Positions 20,437 to 28,085 are shown, numbered from the stretch's first letter. The stretch is 64,000 nucleotides of DNA from Candidatus Micrarchaeota archaeon (GCA_016932815.1 JAFGCC010000002.1:1889-65888), one strand, 5' to 3'. Numbers and translations are program-made. Notes: generated by a model not told the origin, from the letters alone.

Positions 20437-21465
20437 ATGGCCCAGGATGATGGTTCTTGCTGCCCCAAAAAAGAGGGCATTTCTTTTTCCCCGAAGGTTG
20501 TTTCCGAATTCTCAAAAAAGCAATACGGGATTGTGGGGAATCATTCTGCCGTTCAAATCTGCGGGTGGACCAAGAGGTTCCTCCGCGGAAAGGGCGCATG
20601 CTACAAAAACAAGTTTTACGGGGCGGATACGGCTTCGTGTGCGCAGATGAGCCCTTCTGCGGCGTGGTGCTCGCAAAACTGCATATTCTGCTGGAGGCCC
20701 ATGGAATGGATGGAATTCAAGCAGATGGATTCTTCTTGTGTTGATTCGCCATGTTCCATCATTGAGGGGGTTGTTGCGGCCAAACGCAAATTAATTAGCG
20801 GCCTTGGGGGGGCTGAAGATGTTAATGAGGAACTCTTTAGGGAGGCTCTTGATTCCTTTCCAAAGCATTGGGCGATAAGTTTAAGCGGGGAGCCTACGCT
20901 TTATCCGCGCCTTCCGGAAATGATTAAGCTGCTAAAAGAACACGGGGAGGTAAAGAGCGTATTCTTGGTTTCCAACGGGCAGCATCCTTCCATGCTGCTT
21001 AGGTTAAAGGAAGAGGGGGCTTTGCCCACGCAGCTCTACATTTCCGTTGACGCTGCGGAGCCGGAAACTTTTTCCAAGGTGAACGTGCCCGTTTTTTCGG
21101 ATGGGTGGGAGAGGCTTGGGAAAACCTTGTCTGTGCTAAACGATTTGAAATGCAGGAGGGTTTTGCGCTTTACCGTGATTAAAGGGCTCAACGATTTAGA
21201 GTGGATGCTTCCGTTGTATGCTAAGATGTTTGAAGATAGCGGGGCGGATTTTATCGAAGTGAAAGCTTACATGTGGCTGGGGTATTCGCGGCGCAGGCTT
21301 TCCGGGGAGAACATGCCCACGCACGAGTACGTAAAGGAACTCTGCGGCAAGCTGCTAGGATTCATGGGCAACTATCGCTTTGAGGATGAGGATTCCAATT
21401 CGCGGATTGTCCTGCTCAAGCGCAAAGACAGCGTTTATGAAAACGTGATAAGCAATGTCGGATGA
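20437..21465 (+). CDS. taw1: tRNA 4-demethylwyosine synthase (radical SAM, Taw1/TYW1)
   Basis: HSAVQICGWT, CYKNKFYG, CSQNCIFCWR, AISLSGEPTLY, FIEVKAY. Confidence 0.94.
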   Translation: MAQDDGSCCPKKEGISFSPKVVSEFSKKQYGIVGNHSAVQICGWTKRFLRGKGACYKNKFYGADTASCAQMSPSAAWCSQNCIFCWRPMEWMEFKQMDSSCVDSPCSIIEGVVAAKRKLISGLGGAEDVNEELFREALDSFPKHWAISLSGEPTLYPRLPEMIKLLKEHGEVKSVFLVSNGQHPSMLLRLKEEGALPTQLYISVDAAEPETFSKVNVPVFSDGWERLGKTLSVLNDLKCRRVLRFTVIKGLNDLEWMLPLYAKMFEDSGADFIEVKAYMWLGYSRRRLSGENMPTHEYVKELCGKLLGFMGNYRFEDEDSNSRIVLLKRKDSVYENVISNVG

Positions 21466-21583
21466 GGCTTCGTGCAGGCGCGCTATTGGGCAATCTCTCC
21501 GAGATTTGCGGGTTTGCTCCTGGTTTTTCGTGCGGCGGGGCCTTAGGTAACACTTATAAGCTGTTTATACAACAAATCATAGT

Positions 21584-21997
21584 ATGGAATGCAAGACAAT
21601 CCATGCCCATCCCAAATGCGAGCCTCCCCGCAATAAGCAGCTGCCTGCTGTCAACTGGGGCAAGCTGATACTAGCTGCAGGGGGTGTGAGCGCGCTCGTT
21701 AGCGGGGCGTTCCTGTTTGGGTATTCTTCCTCCCAATCCACCGAGGTAAAATATACTTCGGGCGCCCAGGAGCCGGCAAAGCCCTGCATATGCACGCAGG
21801 AGGATACTCCCGCGGAGCGGAGGGATAAGCTTCGCGGGGACGTGCGCAAGCTAAGGGAACTCCGAAGTACCGTGGAGAGGGCGATGCTGGAGCTTGAAAT
21901 CCTCTCTGCGGACATCAGGGGGAAGCTGGATGCGCTTGAAGCTGGGGAAGTTGATGATTCCCTTGAGGGGGAGAAATCTCCTGCGGATACTAATTAG
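21584..21997 (+). CDS. Array member A: single-TM coiled-coil protein with CxC after the TM
   Basis: TM LILAAGGVSALVSGAFLFGY, PCIC, heptad E/L/R-rich C half; AT-rich promoter-like sequence upstream. Confidence 0.75.
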   Translation: MECKTIHAHPKCEPPRNKQLPAVNWGKLILAAGGVSALVSGAFLFGYSSSQSTEVKYTSGAQEPAKPCICTQEDTPAERRDKLRGDVRKLRELRSTVERAMLELEILSADIRGKLDALEAGEVDDSLEGEKSPADTN

Positions 21998-22011
21998 CTG
22001 GGTTTTAGGCG

Positions 22012-22437
22012 GTGGGCACTTTGCGGAAAATTGAGGTTAAGGGAAAACTTGCAGACACCGTTCATCCATTGCGGAGAATCCAGGTGTGGAAGCCTGCACC
22101 AGAATCCATTATGGTTGTTCAAAAGGCCCCGGTTCGCAGGCCCCCAAAATGGAAGAATGCCCTGCTAGTTTGCGCCATGTCCGCCTTCGTTGTGGCGGAG
22201 GGGTATTTCGTATTCAGCGACCTCAAGAGGCGCGTGGATGAGATACGTGCGGAAATCGGTTGTGAGGGAGATGGGCTCAAGCGGGATAGCAAGAGCCTCA
22301 GGGCACAGGTTGAGAGGCTAATGGAGAATTCCAATCGCATCGCCCTGGAGCAGGAAGCGATTTGGAGGGAGCTTGAGAGGCGCTACGGCGGGGATGCGGG
22401 GCTTGTGCGCTGCCCGGAAGGCGAAGAGTGCAGGTAG
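22012..22437 (+). CDS. Array member B: single-TM coiled-coil protein ending LVRCPEGEECR
   Basis: TM ALLVCAMSAFVVAEGYFVF; coiled coil; shared C-terminal motif. Confidence 0.8.
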   Translation: MGTLRKIEVKGKLADTVHPLRRIQVWKPAPESIMVVQKAPVRRPPKWKNALLVCAMSAFVVAEGYFVFSDLKRRVDEIRAEIGCEGDGLKRDSKSLRAQVERLMENSNRIALEQEAIWRELERRYGGDAGLVRCPEGEECR

Positions 22438-22438
22438 C

Positions 22439-22480
22439 TGGATTTGCTTTTTAAACTTTCCTTTACACTAATTATAACTT
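22439..22480 (+). promoter_or_regulatory. Repeated array promoter, copy 1 (TTTTTAAAC...CACTAATTATAACTT-ATG)
   Basis: Alignable with 25342-25383 and 26472-26506; TATA-like box ~30 nt before an ATG. Confidence 0.65.
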
Positions 22481-22499
22481 ATGAATAGTAAGGGCCTTC

Positions 22500-22997
22500 A
22501 TGTTACGGGGGGTGGAAGCAGGAATCGGGGAAACTGCGCCAGTACCATCAGGGGGGGGTGCTAAAAAGCCAGGGGCACGCTGGGGAAGGCGGATATTTAC
22601 TGCAACCCTCATAGCATATGCTGCCGTTGTTTGCAGCCCCTTGGGTGAGCGGGGAACGGCTACGGGGAATCCGGGCAAGCTTGGGGGCGGGGCAGTTGAA
22701 AGCCGAAAACCCCCAAAAGATATCGGAAAAGAGCTATCTAAAATACGAAGCGGGATTTCCGAACTGCAGGAAATGCAGGGGGAGATTCTAGAGGGCCAGG
22801 CATTGATGATAGATGATATACGGGAGATGTCAGAGAACCGGGAGAGGAACCGAGGGGAAATGGAACGGGAACTCAACGAACTAATGGAAAGCCGCACCAG
22901 GCAGATGAGGGCACTGGATGCAATCGAATGGGAATTGGGCAGGCGGGAAGGGAAATTGCCCATTTTGCGCTGTGGTGATGGAGGAGAATGCAAATGA
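22500..22997 (+). CDS. Array member C: single-TM coiled-coil protein ending ILRCGDGGECK (start uncertain)
   Basis: TM IFTATLIAYAAVVC; coiled coil; shared motif. Confidence 0.78.
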   Translation: MLRGVEAGIGETAPVPSGGGAKKPGARWGRRIFTATLIAYAAVVCSPLGERGTATGNPGKLGGGAVESRKPPKDIGKELSKIRSGISELQEMQGEILEGQALMIDDIREMSENRERNRGEMERELNELMESRTRQMRALDAIEWELGRREGKLPILRCGDGGECK

Positions 22998-23638
22998 TTA
23001 GGCAGATGCACCGGAATTTTAAGTGCGTTATCCCTTCACCCAAACGCAATTTCGGCAGGGGGGCAAATGCTGGGTGGAATGTGCAGGGAAGGATGCTTGC
23101 GAAAGTTGAAACCGCCAAGCTTCCGCTGCCGAAAATCCGGGGGCGCAAACCCCGGGCGGAATCCGTAACCAAGGCGGAGAAGGAAACCCGGCAGATGGAC
23201 CGGAAATTGAAACTCCAGATCCAGCTGATTGTTTGCGGCACTTGCGCAACGATAATTGGAATATGTGCGGGGGCATTTTATTTCATGAGCAGGGAAATGC
23301 TCGCCCTAAACTCGGACATAGAAAGGCTCGCACAGGCTGTAGGGCCCATGCAGGAGGGCCTAGATGAGATTGACGGAATGGCAGAAGATTTGGAACGCAT
23401 AGAAAACGACCTTGAGGCCATGAGCGAAAATTTGAGAGGGCTTGGTGGAATAGAAAAGGACCTTGAATATGGAAGGGCGGAGCAGGGGCTTATCTGGAAG
23501 GCGATTATGCTGGATGCGGAGGGGAAGCTGGGGCCTGCGGAAAAGGCGGAACTCGAGGCGGAGCGGAGAGAGCTTAAGAGGCGCTATGAGAGCCGCAACC
23601 GGATTGTCCGCTGCCCGGAAGGAGGCGAATGCAAATGA
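22994..23638 (+). CDS. Array member D: MIRQMHR leader, single TM, coiled coil, ends IVRCPEGGECK
   Basis: ATGA overlap with previous gene; TM LIVCGTCATIIGICAGAFYF. Confidence 0.82.
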   Translation: MIRQMHRNFKCVIPSPKRNFGRGANAGWNVQGRMLAKVETAKLPLPKIRGRKPRAESVTKAEKETRQMDRKLKLQIQLIVCGTCATIIGICAGAFYFMSREMLALNSDIERLAQAVGPMQEGLDEIDGMAEDLERIENDLEAMSENLRGLGGIEKDLEYGRAEQGLIWKAIMLDAEGKLGPAEKAELEAERRELKRRYESRNRIVRCPEGGECK

Positions 23639-24270
23639 TTAGGCAGATGCACAGGATTCTGGATAATGGGAAACACACTATTAGGCCCAAGCGGGGCTTT
23701 GGCAATAGCGGCAACTTATTGCGCAACAGGCAGGTTCTGGAAGAAGGTGCTGCCGCGCTTCGCAGGCAGAAGGGGAGTGTCCCCCTGCCTCTCCCAACTG
23801 GGGAGGGTGCCCTCTACAAAGCAGCCATGCACGTTGCGGAAAAATGGAAATCCGATAAGCCTTTCCGCAAAAAGGTAATCCTTGCTGCCATCATAGTTGC
23901 GCTTGCAGCAGGAGAAGTGCATGCGTGCAGCACGTATGCGCAGAATTACTACGAGAAGGTGCAGATGCAGGAGGCGGCGCGGGCGGAGCGGAGGAGATAC
24001 ATCCTAAAGCAACTCGCTGAAATGGAAGAGAGGATTGACCGATTAGTTGAAAAGCGGGCGGATGCCCTGGAGCAGCAGGTGGAGCAACAGGAAGAAACGA
24101 TAAAGAAAGTTATTGAGGGGCAGCAGCGCGACAGGGAGAACTTCCGCATCATAAGAAGGGAACTCAGGCTCATTCAGGAGCACATGGTAAGGCAGGGGCA
24201 TACGTTTGATGGCGGGCTGGTTGAGGAAGAGCCTATTGTGCGCTGCGAAGATGGGGGAGAATGCAAATGA
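23635..24270 (+). CDS. Array member E: MIRQMHR leader, single TM, coiled coil, ends IVRCEDGGECK
   Basis: ATGA overlap; TM VILAAIIVALAAG. Confidence 0.82.
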   Translation: MIRQMHRILDNGKHTIRPKRGFGNSGNLLRNRQVLEEGAAALRRQKGSVPLPLPTGEGALYKAAMHVAEKWKSDKPFRKKVILAAIIVALAAGEVHACSTYAQNYYEKVQMQEAARAERRRYILKQLAEMEERIDRLVEKRADALEQQVEQQEETIKKVIEGQQRDRENFRIIRRELRLIQEHMVRQGHTFDGGLVEEEPIVRCEDGGECK

Positions 24271-24776
24271 TTCGGCAGCGGCACCGGAATTTGCAGCGCG
24301 TTGTTCCTGCACCTAAGCGGAACTTTGGGAAGAAGAATAATGATGCGTGGAAGGTGCAAAACAGGATGCTCACGGAAGTGGGAACCCGGGGATGCCCCAT
24401 GCGGAAAACCGAAATCCCAAAAGAAAGGCCCCTCTATGGGATGGTTGCGCGGGCTGCGGAAAGAAAGAGGCCGCAGATTGCACTTGCAGGGTGCCTGCTC
24501 CTTGCGGGAGTGCTTACTGCGGCAGTTGCATGCTTCGCGTACGTTTGTTATAAAAAAATCGAAGCGCGGGACAGGGCGCTGGAGCAGAAGAGCGAGGAGA
24601 GATTCGGGGGGATAGAATCGAGGGCGAACCAGGACTTCAACCGGCTTGTTGAAACGCTCCAGAAGCTGGATGTTGGGGGTCTTGACAAGAAGCTCAGGAA
24701 GCTGGAAAAGGCGGAGTTCGGGGAAGAATGGAAACCGCCCATTGTCCGCTGCCCGGAGGGGGAAGAATGCAAATGA
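24267..24776 (+). CDS. Array member F: MIRQRHR leader, single TM, coiled coil, ends IVRCPEGEECK
   Basis: ATGA overlap; TM IALAGCLLLAGVLTAAVACFAYVCY. Confidence 0.82.
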   Translation: MIRQRHRNLQRVVPAPKRNFGKKNNDAWKVQNRMLTEVGTRGCPMRKTEIPKERPLYGMVARAAERKRPQIALAGCLLLAGVLTAAVACFAYVCYKKIEARDRALEQKSEERFGGIESRANQDFNRLVETLQKLDVGGLDKKLRKLEKAEFGEEWKPPIVRCPEGEECK

Positions 24777-25339
24777 GGAAGCAGATGCACCGCAATTTAC
24801 AGCGCGTTGTCCCTTTACCCAAGCGGAACTTTGGAAAGAAAGCGGATGATGCTTGGAGAGTTCATGGCAGGCTGCCCTCAAATGTTGAAACTGCGGGCTG
24901 CCCCCTGCGGAGAATTCCAATTAAGAAAGAGGGGCCCCTGCATACTGCCACGGTTAACGCTGGGGGTGAGGGGAAACCAAGAGCATCCCTGCTAAAGCAA
25001 CTGCTGTTGGCGGGGGTAATTGGTGCGGCAATCGGGTATGGATATTACAAGCTTACTGGGGACATCGATGCGAGAAACGAGGCACGGACGCAGGAACTCA
25101 TGCGGAAACTAGACGAGTTTGAAGCCGAACTAGCCGGGCCGGAAGGAAGCATCGCCAGGAGGTTTGAAGAAATAGAGCAGCGGCAGTATGAGAGGGCGAT
25201 AATGATAGAGGACCTGAAGGAAAACCTCGCACAACAGATGCAGGGCCTCCTAGAAAAGATTGATGAGGTTGAGAGGGTAAGGGGCGGGGGCAAGGCGAAG
25301 GAGATTGTCCGCTGCCCGGAAGGGGGGGAATGCAAATAG
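24773..25339 (+). CDS. Array member G: MRKQMHR leader, single TM, coiled coil, ends IVRCPEGGECK
   Basis: ATGA overlap; TM LLLAGVIGAAIGYGYY; leader closely similar to member F. Confidence 0.82.
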   Translation: MRKQMHRNLQRVVPLPKRNFGKKADDAWRVHGRLPSNVETAGCPLRRIPIKKEGPLHTATVNAGGEGKPRASLLKQLLLAGVIGAAIGYGYYKLTGDIDARNEARTQELMRKLDEFEAELAGPEGSIARRFEEIEQRQYERAIMIEDLKENLAQQMQGLLEKIDEVERVRGGGKAKEIVRCPEGGECK

Positions 25340-25341
25340 CC

Positions 25342-25383
25342 GGATTTTCTTTTTTAAACCTTTTCATACACTAAATACGACTT
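25342..25383 (+). promoter_or_regulatory. Repeated array promoter, copy 2
   Basis: GGATTTTCTTTTTTAAACCTTTTCATACACTAAATACGACTT-ATG; same spacing as copy 1. Confidence 0.65.
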
Positions 25384-25818
25384 ATGGAGAAAACCGCTCC
25401 CCCCAAACGGAGTTCCAATGCGCCGGTTCCAGACGCCATAGACATGGCCAGGCTTGAGAAGGCCGTAGAACGGGCAATCCGGGAGAGGTTCGCAAAGGCA
25501 GAGCGTGAGAAGCCGCGGGCAAGGTGGGGCGTTAGGCTCCTCGTTGCGGGGGCGCTTGCTGGCGGAATCGGGCTGGCTGCGTGGAAACTGGATAACCTGG
25601 AAACCAAGGTTGAGAAAATTTCCGATGAAAGTGCCAGGATGAGAGCGAGAGTAGACCAGACTGAGAAAAACGTCAGCGAATTGGCAGAGACGATGTCCGA
25701 AATCCTTGCTAGGATGGACGGGCTGGTTGAAGGCATTCAAAAAATTGCGGAGGAGGTGGGGTACGAAAGGGAGCAGGAATCCCTTATTCGCTGCCCGGAA
25801 GGGGGGGAATGCAAATGA
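25384..25818 (+). CDS. Array member H: single-TM coiled-coil protein ending LIRCPEGGECK
   Basis: TM LLVAGALAGGIGLAAW; KPRARWG resembles KPGARWG of member C. Confidence 0.82.
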   Translation: MEKTAPPKRSSNAPVPDAIDMARLEKAVERAIRERFAKAEREKPRARWGVRLLVAGALAGGIGLAAWKLDNLETKVEKISDESARMRARVDQTEKNVSELAETMSEILARMDGLVEGIQKIAEEVGYEREQESLIRCPEGGECK

Positions 25819-26471
25819 AGAAAAGGCCGCCGTACCTGAAGCTCGCTTATTCTAGGCCGAAGGAGTTGGAGGTCCAAGAGCGCAGGAGCCCGTGGGAGGG
25901 GAACGCCTCCGCCCCGAAGCATCTGGAAGCGGTGCCCCCCAGCCCGCCCGCGGGGTTTAAGGCCAAATCCTCCTGGGGAAAGAGGCTGATGGTTGCGGGA
26001 ATCTTCGTGTCATTTACGCTCTTCTGCAGGCAGCCGGGAGAGGATAAAAAGCCCCGGGGAATTGGAAGAAGGGGCTCTTCGGAAGTTAGCGAAATCGACA
26101 AATCCAGCACGGATATCCGGGAGGCATCCGGAGACATCCGCAAGGCTACCCAGGAGATAGAAGAATCCAACCGGGAGTTCATAAAATACATGGAACGGCA
26201 AAGCCGGGAGTTTTCGAAATTCATGGAGGAGAAAAACAGGGAGATTGAGGAATCGGGGAAAGGGTTAGACGCGCAACTAGAGGCGCTGAAGGCGGTAAAC
26301 AGGCGCCTTGAGAGGAGCGTGAGGGGGCTCTCCGGGGAATCGAAAAAGCTCAATGAAGGCGCGGATGGCGTGCTAAAGAAGACAGAGAATGTCCAGGGGC
26401 AGCAGAGAAAAATCCTAAGGCGGCTGCGCAGGATGGAAAACCAGCGCGGAGCGGAAAAAGGGGCTCAATAA
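25815..26471 (+). CDS. Array member I: single-TM long coiled-coil protein (no Cys tail)
   Basis: ATGA overlap; WGKRLMVAGIFVSFTLFC; internal repeat NREFIKYME/SREFSKFME. Confidence 0.8.
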   Translation: MKKRPPYLKLAYSRPKELEVQERRSPWEGNASAPKHLEAVPPSPPAGFKAKSSWGKRLMVAGIFVSFTLFCRQPGEDKKPRGIGRRGSSEVSEIDKSSTDIREASGDIRKATQEIEESNREFIKYMERQSREFSKFMEEKNREIEESGKGLDAQLEALKAVNRRLERSVRGLSGESKKLNEGADGVLKKTENVQGQQRKILRRLRRMENQRGAEKGAQ

Positions 26472-26506
26472 GGGTTTTTAACCTTTCTCCCACTAATTAT
26501 AACCAT
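26472..26506 (+). promoter_or_regulatory. Repeated array promoter, copy 3
   Basis: GGGTTTTTAACCTTTCTCCCACTAATTATAACCAT-ATG. Confidence 0.62.
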
Positions 26507-27019
26507 ATGAGGATGCTCAGGCAACTCCCTGCGGAAAAAAGCGGCAAGCCCAATAAACCATGGAAGGTGAATCCATGGAAACCAAGCGAGAAAGCCAAGG
26601 ACCGCATGCTAATAGCAGGGCTGGCAATAGTATTTACCGTGGGCCCGGCATCGATAGTGTATAATCTCTCTAGGATATCCAATGCAAATGGCGGGCCTGC
26701 TGAATCGGGCGCAAAAGAAGAAGCATACGTGCCCCCAAAAAGAGAAGAGGGGAACTCCCGGGAAACGCTGCAGGGAATCCTGGAAGCAAGGCGCGCGATA
26801 AGCAGGAGGGGGAGGGAACTTGATTTGATAGACTCCATGCCTGCGGGAGAGGAAAAGAACGCAGCCATAAAGAAGTTCTTATGGGGGATGAACGAAGGCT
26901 GCGAAGAAAGCGCAATGGGGGAAATGAGCGACTCAATCTACAGGCTGGAAATGATGATAGAAGATATCAGGGCGAAGCAGGAAGAAGGATGCGGGTGCAC
27001 AAACGAACCTAAGAAGTGA
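26507..27019 (+). CDS. Array member J: single-TM helical protein ending GCGCTNEPKK
   Basis: TM MLIAGLAIVFTVGPASIVY; near-terminal CxC; 3' end overlaps purP stop. Confidence 0.75.
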   Translation: MRMLRQLPAEKSGKPNKPWKVNPWKPSEKAKDRMLIAGLAIVFTVGPASIVYNLSRISNANGGPAESGAKEEAYVPPKREEGNSRETLQGILEARRAISRRGRELDLIDSMPAGEEKNAAIKKFLWGMNEGCEESAMGEMSDSIYRLEMMIEDIRAKQEEGCGCTNEPKK

Positions 27020-28085
27020 CCTCATCTAGCCTTCCGGTTTTTTCGGCTTCCTTTATCTCCATTGCAACGCGCCTCCCGAAACTTATTGGCTCGCGGTACA
27101 AATAATACGAATAGGGAGTAAAACGCGTTCCGGGGGAACCGGGCATCCTAAATGACACATCGAATACGACGAACCGTTCCTTGCCGTCTTTCTCCTCTAT
27201 TGCGCCCTGGAGCGCAAAAGGCCCAATTAGGCCCTGCGGGTAGAACTCCTTAACAGTTTCCACAAAGCGCTCTCCTGCTTCTATTCCCTTTTGCAGGAGC
27301 GATTCGCGCATCGTGCAGGATATGTGCCCGGCCTCTATTGTAGTGAAGCGGCGGTATTTTAGGACTTCCGACTGCTGGGGGGCGGGGAGGCGGAGCAGGC
27401 CGTCTATGTTGGTCTGCCTGCGCGTGTCTATTCCCAAGAGTTCAAGCTCCCCGCTCAAAGGCGAATAGAAGAAGTTGAAGTTGAACTGCGCGCCGAGGAT
27501 GAATTCCTCTATGCGCGCGTCTGCCAGGTCTTCTACCGCGATTGTGCCTTCGGAAATTAGCTGCTGGCTTTTTTCCTCAAACTCAGCAGGGCTTGCGGCA
27601 AAGAAGAATGCGCGCTCGTATGAGCGCTTGGCCTCCTGCACCTTCACTAAGGAGAGGACGTCTATTTCCTCCGGCTTGAACGTGCGTGCTATGTTGATTT
27701 TCGCGTTCTCAAGCAGGTCGTACTGGTTGTTTTCCGCGGTGCGCTCTTCTGCGCGCAGGAGGTGCTTGTTCCCGAAAATGGGGACTTTGAACTTGTTTTC
27801 TATATTGTCGTATCCGACGTAAACCGAGAACGAGCGGTTGGGGATGAAGACCGAATCGGAGAGCTTCTCCTGGGTTTCATCCGATATTATGTCCGCAAAT
27901 GAATCCAGGAGCAGGACGTCGTCAACTACGCCCATCCCCCTGCCGTTTCTGGTGCGGGACCTAAAGTGCTTTGAATATGTTACGTCCCTGCCTTTTTGGC
28001 ACACTACCATCGACTTGTATCCTTCTGCCTTTGCACCTTCGGAAACATCCAGCGCGGAGTGGCTTCCCAATGTTGAAATGAACAT
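27009..28085 (-). CDS. purP: FAICAR synthetase PurP family (ATP-grasp)
   Basis: ISTLGSHSALD, FIPNRSF, ERAFF, LIGPFALQ, FGRRVAMEIK. Confidence 0.9.
   Translation of the reverse strand: MFISTLGSHSALDVSEGAKAEGYKSMVVCQKGRDVTYSKHFRSRTRNGRGMGVVDDVLLLDSFADIISDETQEKLSDSVFIPNRSFSVYVGYDNIENKFKVPIFGNKHLLRAEERTAENNQYDLLENAKINIARTFKPEEIDVLSLVKVQEAKRSYERAFFFAASPAEFEEKSQQLISEGTIAVEDLADARIEEFILGAQFNFNFFYSPLSGELELLGIDTRRQTNIDGLLRLPAPQQSEVLKYRRFTTIEAGHISCTMRESLLQKGIEAGERFVETVKEFYPQGLIGPFALQGAIEEKDGKERFVVFDVSFRMPGSPGTRFTPYSYYLYREPISFGRRVAMEIKEAEKTGRLDEVTS

What the first reader, a model, noticed from the sequence alone, without database searches (positions are those of the whole stretch)
22402..25818. Conserved extreme C-terminal motif R-C-x-[ED]-G-[GE]-E-C-[KR]-stop on seven otherwise divergent proteins
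Seen: tails LVRCPEGEECR (stop ends 22437), ILRCGDGGECK (22997), IVRCPEGGECK (23638), IVRCEDGGECK (24270), IVRCPEGEECK (24776), IVRCPEGGECK (25339) and LIRCPEGGECK (25818). DNA copies differ at synonymous sites (TGC/TGT, GGC/GGA/GGG, GAA/GAG, TGA/TAG). The motif is also kept in the two genes followed by a promoter rather than a coupled start, so selection acts on the peptide. In five copies the same codons supply a G-rich SD-like sequence and the ATGA start of the next gene. Inference: a C-x5-C disulfide loop, metal clasp, or new C-terminal sorting/modification signal.
Basis: partly seen in the sequence, partly recalled or inferred. Interest (0 to 1): 0.75.

Follow-up and report, generated by a model that had tools for sequence, protein, structure and literature searches.

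The report
Cysteine-loop cap on archaeal stalk paralogs
Seven neighbouring genes of a tiny uncultured archaeon encode membrane-anchored helical stalk proteins that all end in the same nine-residue two-cysteine loop, a real and selected feature of one very narrowly distributed gene family rather than a general protein-sorting signal.

Summary
Seven + strand ORFs end in R-C-x-[ED]-G-[GE]-E-C-[KR]-stop at the stated coordinates, with 0 matches in 100 shuffles.

The proteins are paralogs, not unrelated. Ten tandem genes (21584-27019) share a basic N-terminal head, one transmembrane helix and an acidic helical stalk. Seven carry the tail.

The motif occurs nowhere else in this 1.25 Mb genome. It is not in 175 other genomes of the order, nor above chance in 185,579 species genomes. 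An exhaustive search of 1.84 billion proteins found five relatives. All are orthologs of array members and all keep both Cys.

Selection acts on the peptide: tail pN 0.13 against pS 0.48. The Gly-Gly-Glu-Cys-Lys codons also supply the GGAGG Shine-Dalgarno site and ATGA start of the next gene.

A sorting-signal reading is not supported. My best reading is a disulfide- or metal-closed cap at the outer tip of a dimeric stalk. The nearest analogue is phage lambda Rz, which has a bonded penultimate Cys. The chemistry is untested.

Interest is moderate to low.

The parts
21584..21997 (+). g0: first gene of the array (137 aa). Short basic head, one hydrophobic helix, helical tail, no Cys cap. Own TATA-like box about 33 nt upstream.
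22012..22437 (+). g1 (141 aa from GTG 22012; the ortholog P0010 starts at the Met that corresponds to ATG 22111). Ends LVRCPEGEECR-TAG and is followed by a promoter-like spacer, not a coupled start.
22440..22480 (+). Promoter-like spacer with TTTTTAAAC about 30 nt before ATG 22481. It shares 79% identity over 58 nt (together with the g1 tail) with the g6-tail/g7-promoter junction.
   Evidence: D4
22500..22997 (+). g2 (165 aa from ATG 22500). Ends ILRCGDGGECK-TGA. An 8-G run at 22551-22558 separates it from the frame of the promoter-proximal ATG 22481.
22988..23638 (+). g3 (216 aa from ATG 22988; more likely starts at the ATGA, 22994). Ends IVRCPEGGECK-TGA. Its ortholog is P0005.
23629..24270 (+). 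g4 (213 aa; ATGA start at 23635). Ends IVRCEDGGECK-TGA.
   Evidence: P0001
24261..24776 (+). g5 (171 aa; ATGA start at 24267). Ends IVRCPEGEECK-TGA. Its ortholog is P0008.
24767..25339 (+). g6 (190 aa from the MQM start; ATGA start at 24773). Ends IVRCPEGGECK-TAG and is followed by a promoter-like spacer. Its ortholog is P0004.
25340..25383 (+). Promoter-like spacer (TTTTTTAAAC) about 30 nt before the g7 ATG. This spacing implies a leaderless or near-leaderless transcript.
25384..25818 (+). g7 (144 aa). Ends LIRCPEGGECK-TGA. Its ortholog is P0009. The AF2 model is a single helix over residues 18-130 with a low-confidence tail.
25809..26471 (+). g8 (220 aa), coupled to g7 through the tail codons. 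Same architecture but no Cys in the ectodomain; ends ...RGAEKGAQ.
26507..27019 (+). g9 (170 aa) with its own promoter-like spacer (26472-26506). The head MRMLRQL resembles the family head. It has a different Cys-containing end, ...EEGCGCTNEPKK.
22402..22437 (+). Tail 1: 11 codons plus stop.
22962..22997 (+). Tail 2. It holds GGAGGAG and the ATGCAAATGA of g3.
23603..23638 (+). Tail 3. It holds GGAGG and the start of g4.
24235..24270 (+). Tail 4. It holds GGGGGAG and the start of g5.
24741..24776 (+). Tail 5. It holds GGGGGAAG and the start of g6.
25304..25339 (+). Tail 6, with no coupled gene after it.
25783..25818 (+). Tail 7. It holds a G7 run and the start of g8. A second strain reads GGA GGA here, which is synonymous.

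Best explanation
Ten tandem genes fill a hypervariable slot between the TYW1 and PurP genes of a small archaeal genome. Each encodes a basic cytoplasmic head, one transmembrane helix and an acidic heptad-repeat stalk of about 60-110 residues. The predicted topology is N-in/C-out. In seven of the ten, the stalk ends in the loop R-C-P-E-G-G-E-C-K.

Shown: the loop is kept by selection on the peptide, with both Cys invariant. Its last five codons are also used as the Shine-Dalgarno site (GGAGG) and ATGA start of the next, translationally coupled gene. This adds nucleotide-level constraint in five of the seven copies.

Inferred: the stalks form parallel dimers. The two Cys are the only Cys outside the membrane in most members. 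They close or cross-link the distal tip by a disulfide, either an intrachain C-x5-C ring or homotypic interchain bonds. Phage lambda Rz uses its penultimate Cys152 in the second way. The result is one constant tip displayed on stalks of variable length and sequence. The tip is a structural staple or common contact point, not a signal read by a sorting enzyme.
For: Family and architecture:
- The HMM of the seven finds each copy at E 4e-16 to 8e-76.
- They share a head motif, TM helix and stalk.
- The N-terminal part has net charge +3 to +17. The C-terminal part has net charge -10 to 0 in 14 of 15 proteins.
- The AF2 model of g7 is one helix over residues 18-130, with pLDDT 88-95 across the stalk.

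Peptide selection:
- Both Cys are invariant in 12 of 12 tail-bearing proteins, including 5 orthologs from elsewhere.
- Tail pN is 0.13 against pS 0.48, while the bodies are saturated (pS about 0.8, pN about 0.55).
- The tail is kept in g1 and g6, which have no coupled downstream gene.
- Across the five ortholog pairs, identity is 44 of 55 in the tail, 224 of 374 in the stalk and 156 of 267 in the head.
- A second strain from another study shows only 2 differences in the 4 tails covered. Both are synonymous. Over the array it shows 25 nonsynonymous and 13 synonymous differences.

Cysteine content:
- The two tail Cys are the only ectodomain Cys in 10 of 12 tail-bearing proteins.

Dual coding:
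- The 16S rRNA 3' end carries CCUCC.
- 64 of 141 ATGA-coupled gene pairs in the genome have an SD-like run, against 12.7% at background positions.
- The usual SD spacing is about 9 nt, which fits the ATGA start in the array.

Analogue:
- Lambda Rz has an N-terminal TM helix and periplasmic coiled coils. Its penultimate C152 forms a homotypic intermolecular disulfide (PMC5295617, passages read).
- Rz-like spanin PHROGs are the most frequent weak hit, in 4 of 12 members at E 3.5e-5 to 0.01.
Against: - No bond or metal has been observed.
- The AF2 tail is low confidence (pLDDT 50-57).
- No VKOR or DsbA-like (Thioredoxin_4) oxidase was found in the 91.5%-complete genome.
- The runs that hold the DNA are labelled sediment and salt-marsh metagenomes, which are often anoxic. 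Both points weaken a disulfide and favour free thiols or a metal.
- Three of the ten array genes (g0, g8, g9) lack the cap.
- The positional counterparts in six species of the same genus also lack it. The architecture therefore works without the cap.
- Topology rests on the positive-inside rule only.
- Tail pS (0.48) is lower than body pS (about 0.8). Part of the conservation is therefore at nucleotide level.
Confidence: 0.5

Rival explanations
1. Metal clasp. The thiols stay reduced. Two chains (Cys4), or one chain with its two Glu (Cys2Glu2), hold a Zn, Fe or other metal ion at the stalk tip. This clamps a dimer, as the Rad50 zinc hook does at a coiled-coil apex.
For: There are two invariant Cys plus a conserved Glu/Asp and Glu. 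No VKOR or Thioredoxin_4 family oxidase was found. The run labels are sediment and salt marsh. The loop lies at the end of a heptad-repeat helix.
Against: The predicted location is outside the cell, where structural zinc sites are less usual. C-x5-C is not a known zinc-knuckle spacing (recalled, not tested). No similarity to any solved metal site was found; the best PDB sequence hit had E 0.0031 and all hits were coiled coils.
Confidence: 0.2
2. By-product of gene organisation. The tail is conserved mainly because the unit that was duplicated and kept is the junction: 3' end, then SD and start or promoter, then the 5' head of the next gene. On this view the peptide itself has little function.
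For: The junction is the only repeated DNA block. There are 6 copies of a 59-nt junction at 61-80% identity and 3 copies of a 203-nt block. The tail+TAG+promoter junction is duplicated at 79%. The SD and ATGA lie inside the tail codons. Tail pS is below body pS. [quoted passage not shown]
Against: The first Cys, Arg and Pro/Glu lie upstream of the SD, and the second Cys lies in the SD-start spacer. Coupling constrains neither. The tail is kept in g1 and g6, which have no coupled gene. pN/pS is 0.28. The Cys are kept in 5 of 5 orthologs although neighbouring residues changed (G to R, K to R, R to L).
Confidence: 0.15
3. A new C-terminal sorting, lipidation or other modification signal, read by a dedicated enzyme.
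For: The motif is at the extreme C-terminus and strictly placed, with a penultimate Cys.
Against: All 7 of 7 genome occurrences lie in one paralog array. There is no hydrophobic or basic segment after the motif. No exosortase/archaeosortase match was found. The motif is not in 175 other genomes of the order. In 185,579 species genomes there are 3 hits, all short junk frames, and two of them do not end in a stop. A dedicated enzyme for one family in one lineage is unlikely.
Confidence: 0.05
4. Not real genes: the frames are chance ORFs in purine-rich repeated DNA.
For: No Pfam or NCBIfam family reaches its cut-off. Long antisense ORFs also exist.
Against: The frames are open and tightly coupled. 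Five orthologous proteins elsewhere keep the frames over 97-216 aa. pN is below pS in the tail. All ten show a consistent TM helix and heptad stalk. No Rfam family matches.
Confidence: 0.03

Closest known systems
Phage lambda Rz (i-spanin)
   Same: Rz has an N-terminal membrane anchor with the rest outside the cytoplasmic membrane, and helical coiled-coil stalks that act as homodimers. A Cys at the penultimate residue (C152 of 153) makes a homotypic interchain disulfide (PMC5295617, passages read). Rz-like spanin PHROGs give weak hits to 4 of 12 family members.
   Different: This family has no partner lipoprotein gene, no lysis cassette and no phage context; the flanks are TYW1 and PurP. The host is an archaeon. 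The cytoplasmic head is long and basic, 30-85 aa. There are two Cys spaced x5 at the tip. tblastn against 50,697 phage records found no match. The PHROG hits cover only the TM helix and stalk.
lpl tandem lipoprotein-like cluster of Staphylococcus aureus (Tsuru and Kobayashi 2008)
   Same: In a tandem paralog cluster the conserved evolutionary unit runs from the 3' part of one ORF, across the junction, into the 5' part of the next (PMC2568036, abstract read). Here too the junction is the conserved block.
   Different: In lpl a central conserved region acts as the recombination site and the ends vary. Here the centre is the most diverged part and the ends are conserved. The junction copies are only 61-80% identical, so recent homogenisation is unlikely.
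Archaeosortase/exosortase C-terminal sorting signals (PGF-CTERM, PEF-CTERM and the like)
   Same: Both are short conserved motifs at the C-terminus of archaeal surface proteins.
   Different: Those signals are a motif plus a transmembrane helix plus a basic cluster. They sit on many unrelated proteins of a proteome and need an archaeosortase (features recalled from knowledge of the family). None of the three features is met here.
'Rana box' of frog antimicrobial peptides (recalled from memory, not tested)
   Same: It is a disulfide-closed heptapeptide ring, Cys-x5-Cys, at the extreme C-terminus of an amphipathic helix.
   Different: It occurs in small secreted animal peptides with no homology to this family. 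It is named only as a precedent that a C-x5-C ring can cap a helix.
Rad50 zinc hook
   Same: Cys pairs from two chains meet at the end of a long coiled coil and share one metal ion (recalled).
   Different: The zinc hook has CxxC at the apex of an antiparallel intramolecular coiled coil, and it is cytoplasmic. Here the motif is C-x5-C at the chain end, with a predicted extracellular location.

Membership tests
Archaeosortase-type C-terminal sorting signal | Motif followed by a hydrophobic transmembrane segment and a basic cluster at the very end | tested here: not met
   The tail is 9 hydrophilic residues directly before the stop.
Archaeosortase-type C-terminal sorting signal | Present on several unrelated proteins of the same proteome | tested here: not met
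   All 7 of 7 matches among 24,030 six-frame ORFs are paralogs in one array.
Archaeosortase-type C-terminal sorting signal | Cognate archaeosortase/exosortase gene in the genome | tested here: not met
   PF09721 gives no match in G000, which is 91.5% complete. The control search rings in Methanocaldococcus. An incomplete genome does not prove absence.
Phage i-spanin (Rz-like) | N-terminal transmembrane anchor, N-in/C-out | tested here: met
   There is one hydrophobic helix. The N side has net charge +3 to +17 and the C side -10 to 0 in 14 of 15 proteins. This is a prediction only.
Phage i-spanin (Rz-like) | Extracytoplasmic coiled-coil helices | tested here: met
   The AF2 model has a helix over 18-130 with stalk pLDDT 88-95. 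Only coiled-coil families give weak Pfam and PDB hits.
Phage i-spanin (Rz-like) | Homotypic interchain disulfide through a C-terminal Cys | not testable with these tools
   A penultimate Cys is present in 12 of 12. The bond itself needs biochemistry.
Phage i-spanin (Rz-like) | Partner o-spanin lipoprotein gene and a phage lysis cassette | tested here: not met
   The neighbours are paralogs of the same family plus TYW1, PurP, RpoD, S11 and the CCA enzyme. No lipobox ORF search was run.
Phage i-spanin (Rz-like) | Significant sequence similarity to the family | tested here: inconclusive
   phrog_739 hits 3 of 12 members (best E 3.5e-5) and phrog_1152 hits 1 of 12. Only the TM helix and stalk are aligned. 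tblastn against phages finds none.
Zinc hook / zinc clasp | CxxC (or CxC) pairs from two chains around one Zn | tested here: not met
   The spacing is C-x5-C in all 12. Metal binding is not testable here.
Junction-unit tandem paralog cluster (S. aureus lpl type) | Conserved unit spanning the 3' end of one ORF and the 5' end of the next | tested here: met
   Repeat families D1, D2 and D4 are junction blocks.
Junction-unit tandem paralog cluster (S. aureus lpl type) | Central conserved region serving as the recombination site | tested here: not met
   The centre of the genes has the lowest identity, 0.32-0.45, with pS about 0.8.

The most novel reading that the evidence does not exclude
The array is a host-contact apparatus of a symbiotic DPANN-type archaeon. 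It would be a set of co-expressed, fast-diverging, membrane-anchored stalks of different lengths that all present the same reactive two-cysteine tip. The tip would bind, or covalently or through a metal latch onto, a partner on the opposing host surface. This would be functionally akin to the membrane-bridging, fusogenic spanins of phages. Expression of the first operon would be switched by a variable poly-G tract in g2.
Probability: 0.1. Interest if true: 0.7.

Novelty: new variant of a known kind. Interest (0 to 1): 0.35.

Why it matters
If the cap is a disulfide or metal staple at the tip of a surface stalk, it gives a small and easily tested handle on an otherwise opaque class of proteins. 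These are the orphan, rapidly evolving membrane proteins that make up much of the genomes of tiny host-dependent archaea and probably mediate cell-cell contact.

It is also a clean example of a short peptide motif under two layers of constraint at once: protein function, plus the ribosome-binding site and start of the next gene. A reader of raw sequence should separate the two before proposing a signal.

The feature is restricted to one species-level lineage. The general importance is therefore limited unless the host-contact reading proves true.

Tried and rejected
Family and structure searches
- Pfam and NCBIfam on all ten proteins gave only coiled-coil noise below every curated cut-off.
- The ESM Atlas gave no feature hit at 0.9 or more. 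Structural neighbours were generic helices such as DivIC and FliH.
- The PDB sequence search with the family profile had best E 0.0031, and all hits were coiled coils.
- hhalign of the family against the positional counterparts in the genus (A4), and against g8 and g9, aligned only the TM helix (probabilities 6-35%). Homology with the neighbours' genes is therefore not shown.

Homolog searches
- The search for homologous proteins with the 7-sequence profile returned only 3 proteins, all from the window's own contig. Only 8000 candidates were scored.
Their sources, contigs and DNA remain unknown.
- JGI metagenome contigs: 55 peptide-pattern matches, none a relative of g3 by tblastn. Diverged relatives of other members could have been missed by that filter. 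The junction DNA pattern gave 0 matches, although it finds 4 junctions in the window.
- Viral contigs: 15 pattern matches, none confirmed.
- Species genomes: 3 pattern hits, all in 34-51 aa junk frames of unrelated bacteria. Two end in TGG because my pattern TRR also allowed Trp.
- tblastn of g7 against phage records found no match.

Other
- Complex prediction on the g7 ectodomain as a homodimer: no verdict (score 0.17, mark 0.42).
- Expression: no RNA holder listed. The two metatranscriptome runs of the same study gave only spurious pieces of about 35 nt.
- Rfam found no family in 21000-27500.
- Literature: the strings CPEGGEC, RCPEGGECK and CPEGEEC have 0 occurrences in the held library, and the RCPEG hits are unrelated words. 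A search for Micrarchaeota, coiled-coil, membrane and cysteine listed 3 papers. None is on this subject by its title and abstract start.

Full report
**1. The observation**

The region 21584-27019 of the + strand holds ten tightly packed ORFs, which I call g0 to g9.

- A degenerate DNA pattern for the tail matches 7 times in the window and 0 times in each of 100 shuffles.
- In the whole genome (1,246,214 bases, 25 contigs; the window is C23:1889-65888), 7 of 24,030 six-frame ORFs of at least 30 aa end in the strict motif.
- All 7 are in this array, and the motif never occurs internally.
- The synonymous differences are real: TGC/TGT, GGA/GGC/GGG, GAA/GAG, TGA/TAG.
- g1 and g6 are followed by a promoter-like spacer rather than a coupled start.
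- In five junctions the tail codons hold a G-rich run and ATGCAAATGA.

**2. What the seven proteins are**

They are not unrelated proteins that share a tag. An alignment of all ten and of the seven (23-45% identity to g6) shows one architecture.

- The N-terminal part is basic. In g3 to g6 it begins with a conserved head, M(QM)IRQxHRNxxRVVPxPKRNFG.
- One hydrophobic helix follows, often with small-xxx-small motifs.
- Then comes an acidic heptad-repeat segment.
- An HMM of the seven finds every copy in the genome at E 4e-16 to 8e-76 and nothing elsewhere in it.
- The N-terminal parts carry net charge +3 to +17. The C-terminal parts carry -10 to 0 in 14 of 15 proteins examined; g8 is the exception at +7.
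- By the positive-inside rule the head is cytoplasmic and the stalk and tail lie outside. This is a prediction, not a measurement.
- AlphaFold2 with the 12-row family alignment models g7 as a single helix over residues 18-130, with pLDDT 88-95 over the stalk. The last 14 residues are unstructured at pLDDT 50-57.
- The two tail Cys are the only Cys beyond the membrane helix in 10 of 12 tail-bearing proteins.
- g0, g8 and g9 have the same build but lack the cap. g9 ends in a different Cys-containing string, and g8 has no ectodomain Cys at all.

**3. Context**

The flanks are housekeeping archaeal genes: S11, RNA polymerase subunit D and TYW1 upstream, and PurP-type ligase and the archaeal CCA enzyme downstream. 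Earlier notes of this scan call the genome Micrarchaeota. I did not test that label.

In six species of the same genus, TYW1 and PurP lie only about 70 to 1,480 bases apart. That gap holds none, one or two small genes with a basic head, one hydrophobic helix and a helical acidic tail, but no Cys cap.

Profile comparison finds no sequence homology between those genes and the array beyond the membrane helix. I therefore call them positional counterparts only. In this genome the slot has grown to 5.5 kb and ten genes.

Promoter-like TTTTTAAAC boxes sit about 30 nt before the ATGs at 22481, 25384 and 26507. The relatives' genes have TTTATAA at the same distance. This suggests leaderless transcripts and four transcription units: g0-g1, g2-g6, g7-g8 and g9.

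**4. Distribution**

The family is very narrow.

- It was not found in 40 relatives.
- It was not found in 175 other genomes of the order. Five weak hits (E 5e-6 to 9e-4) cover only the helix and stalk, never the tail.
- The tail DNA pattern gives 3 hits in one genome each of 185,579 species. All are 34-51 aa junk frames in unrelated bacteria, and two do not even end in a stop.
- JGI metagenome contigs gave nothing confirmed, and neither did viral contigs.
- An exhaustive HMMER pass over 1.84 billion representative proteins returned 11 proteins. Five are the window's own, one is an unrelated coiled coil, and five are true relatives.
- The five relatives pair one-to-one with g1, g3, g5, g6 and g7, so at least one other organism carries an orthologous array.
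- Their tails read RCPEEGECR, RCPEGRECR, LCPEGEECK, RCPEGRECR and RCPEGGECK. Both Cys are kept in 5 of 5.
- Short contigs from a salt-marsh run of a different study cover much of the array at roughly 96-99% identity. A close strain therefore exists in a second sample.

**5. Is the peptide under selection, or only the DNA?**

Both. The evidence for selection on the peptide:

- Over all pairs of the seven tails, pS is 0.48 and pN 0.13. The gene bodies are saturated, with pS about 0.8 and pN about 0.55.
- In the five ortholog pairs, identity is 44 of 55 in the tail, 224 of 374 in the stalk, 156 of 267 in the head and 62 of 95 in the membrane helix.
- In the second strain, the listed pieces cover four tails (g1, g3, g5, g7). 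They show two differences, both synonymous (GGG to GGA twice in g7).
- Over the array the listed in-gene differences are 25 nonsynonymous to 13 synonymous. These are low-depth contigs, and 2 differences were not shown.

The evidence for nucleotide-level constraint:

- The genome's 16S rRNA ends in CCUCC.
- Of 141 ATGA-overlapped gene pairs, by a crude definition of my own, 64 have an SD-like run. The background rate is 12.7%.
- The usual spacing is about 9 nt.
- In the array GGAGG lies 10 nt before the ATGA and only 3 nt before the first ATG. The ATGA (MIRQ...) is therefore the likelier start, as gene callers also chose for P0001, P0004 and P0005.

So Gly-Gly-Glu supplies the SD, and the last codon plus the stop supplies the start. 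The Arg, the first Cys and Pro/Glu lie upstream of the SD. The second Cys lies in the spacer. Coupling explains none of them.

**6. The junction as a unit**

The only repeated DNA in the region is the junction.

- A 59-nt block (tail plus start plus head) occurs in 6 copies at 61-80% identity.
- A 203-nt block occurs in 3 copies.
- The tail+TAG+promoter junctions after g1 and g6 share 79% identity.

This recalls the unit of evolution that spans two adjacent genes in the S. aureus lpl cluster (PMC2568036, abstract read). There, however, the centre is conserved and the ends vary, which is the opposite of this case. The modest identity argues against recent homogenisation.

**7. Mechanism**

A sorting or modification signal is not supported.

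- It would serve one paralog family only.
- There is no hydrophobic or basic segment after the motif.
- No exosortase-family match was found.

I favour a structural cap at the outer tip of a dimeric membrane-anchored stalk. The closest worked example is lambda Rz. Rz has an N-terminal anchor and periplasmic coiled coils, and it acts as a homodimer. Its penultimate Cys152 forms a homotypic disulfide (PMC5295617, passages read). Rz-like spanin PHROGs are the commonest weak hit, in 4 of 12 members. The hits cover only the helix and stalk. There is no lysis cassette, partner gene or phage match. This is a functional analogy, not membership.

Whether the Cys form an intrachain C-x5-C ring, interchain bonds or a metal site cannot be told here. 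No VKOR or DsbA-like oxidase was found, and the run labels are sediment and salt marsh. The metal or free-thiol alternative therefore stays alive.

**8. Verdict**

The feature is real and selected. It belongs to an orphan, species-level family of surface stalk proteins.

Noticed in passing
window 22481-22560: g2 has an 8-G run at 22551-22558. In the second strain (run X2) the run is 4 bases shorter, which puts the promoter-proximal ATG 22481 in frame with the g2 body. In this genome that ATG runs into a stop after 27 codons, and g2 must start at ATG 22500. This could be a frameshift, an assembly error or a variable tract that switches g2. G7 runs also sit in the tails of g6 and g7.
   Followed up: partly
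window 22994-23100, 23635-23740, 24267-24370, 24773-24880: A second conserved element is the basic head, MIRQxHRNxxRVVPxPKRNFGKKxxxAWxVxGRM, in g3 to g6 and in the orthologs P0004, P0005 and P0008. A fainter form occurs in g9 (MRMLRQL). No family matches it and its function is unknown. P0008 appears to carry the start of the head twice.
   Followed up: partly
window 21466-27008; loci L013-L018: The slot between TYW1 and PurP is hypervariable across the genus. The gaps are about 70, 330, 790, 850, 1090 and 1480 bases, holding 0-2 small membrane-helix/coiled-coil genes, against 5.5 kb and ten genes here. The relatives' long proteins are 30-38% identical to the G003 protein and end in ...EEKxFW..., not in a Cys loop.
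   Followed up: yes
window 22440-22480, 25340-25383, 26472-26506, 21545-21583: TATA-like boxes (TTTTTAAAC, TTATAAG) lie about 30 nt before the ATG of g2 (22481), g7, g9 and g0, which implies leaderless mRNAs. The syntenic genes of six relatives have TTTATAA at the same distance.
   Followed up: partly
window 26440-26471 and 26980-27019: The end of g8 (RGAEKGAQ-TAA) looks at DNA level like a decayed copy of the cap with both Cys lost. g9 ends EEGCGCTNEPKK, with a C-G-C pair instead of C-x5-C. Neither point was tested statistically.
   Followed up: no
window 22472-23011 (-), 24174-24920 (-), 25847-26353 (-): Long antisense ORFs (168-248 aa) lie opposite the array. They are most likely shadows of the purine-rich coding strand (GC skew +0.24). 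They were not searched against any library.
   Followed up: no
G000 contig C22 (end of contig) and C25 near 17265: Other predicted proteins of this genome end in Cys-rich stretches, for example a frame of more than 890 aa on C22 with many Cys in its last 40 residues. The organism therefore does build Cys-rich, probably extracellular, modules although no VKOR or DsbA-like gene was found.
   Followed up: no
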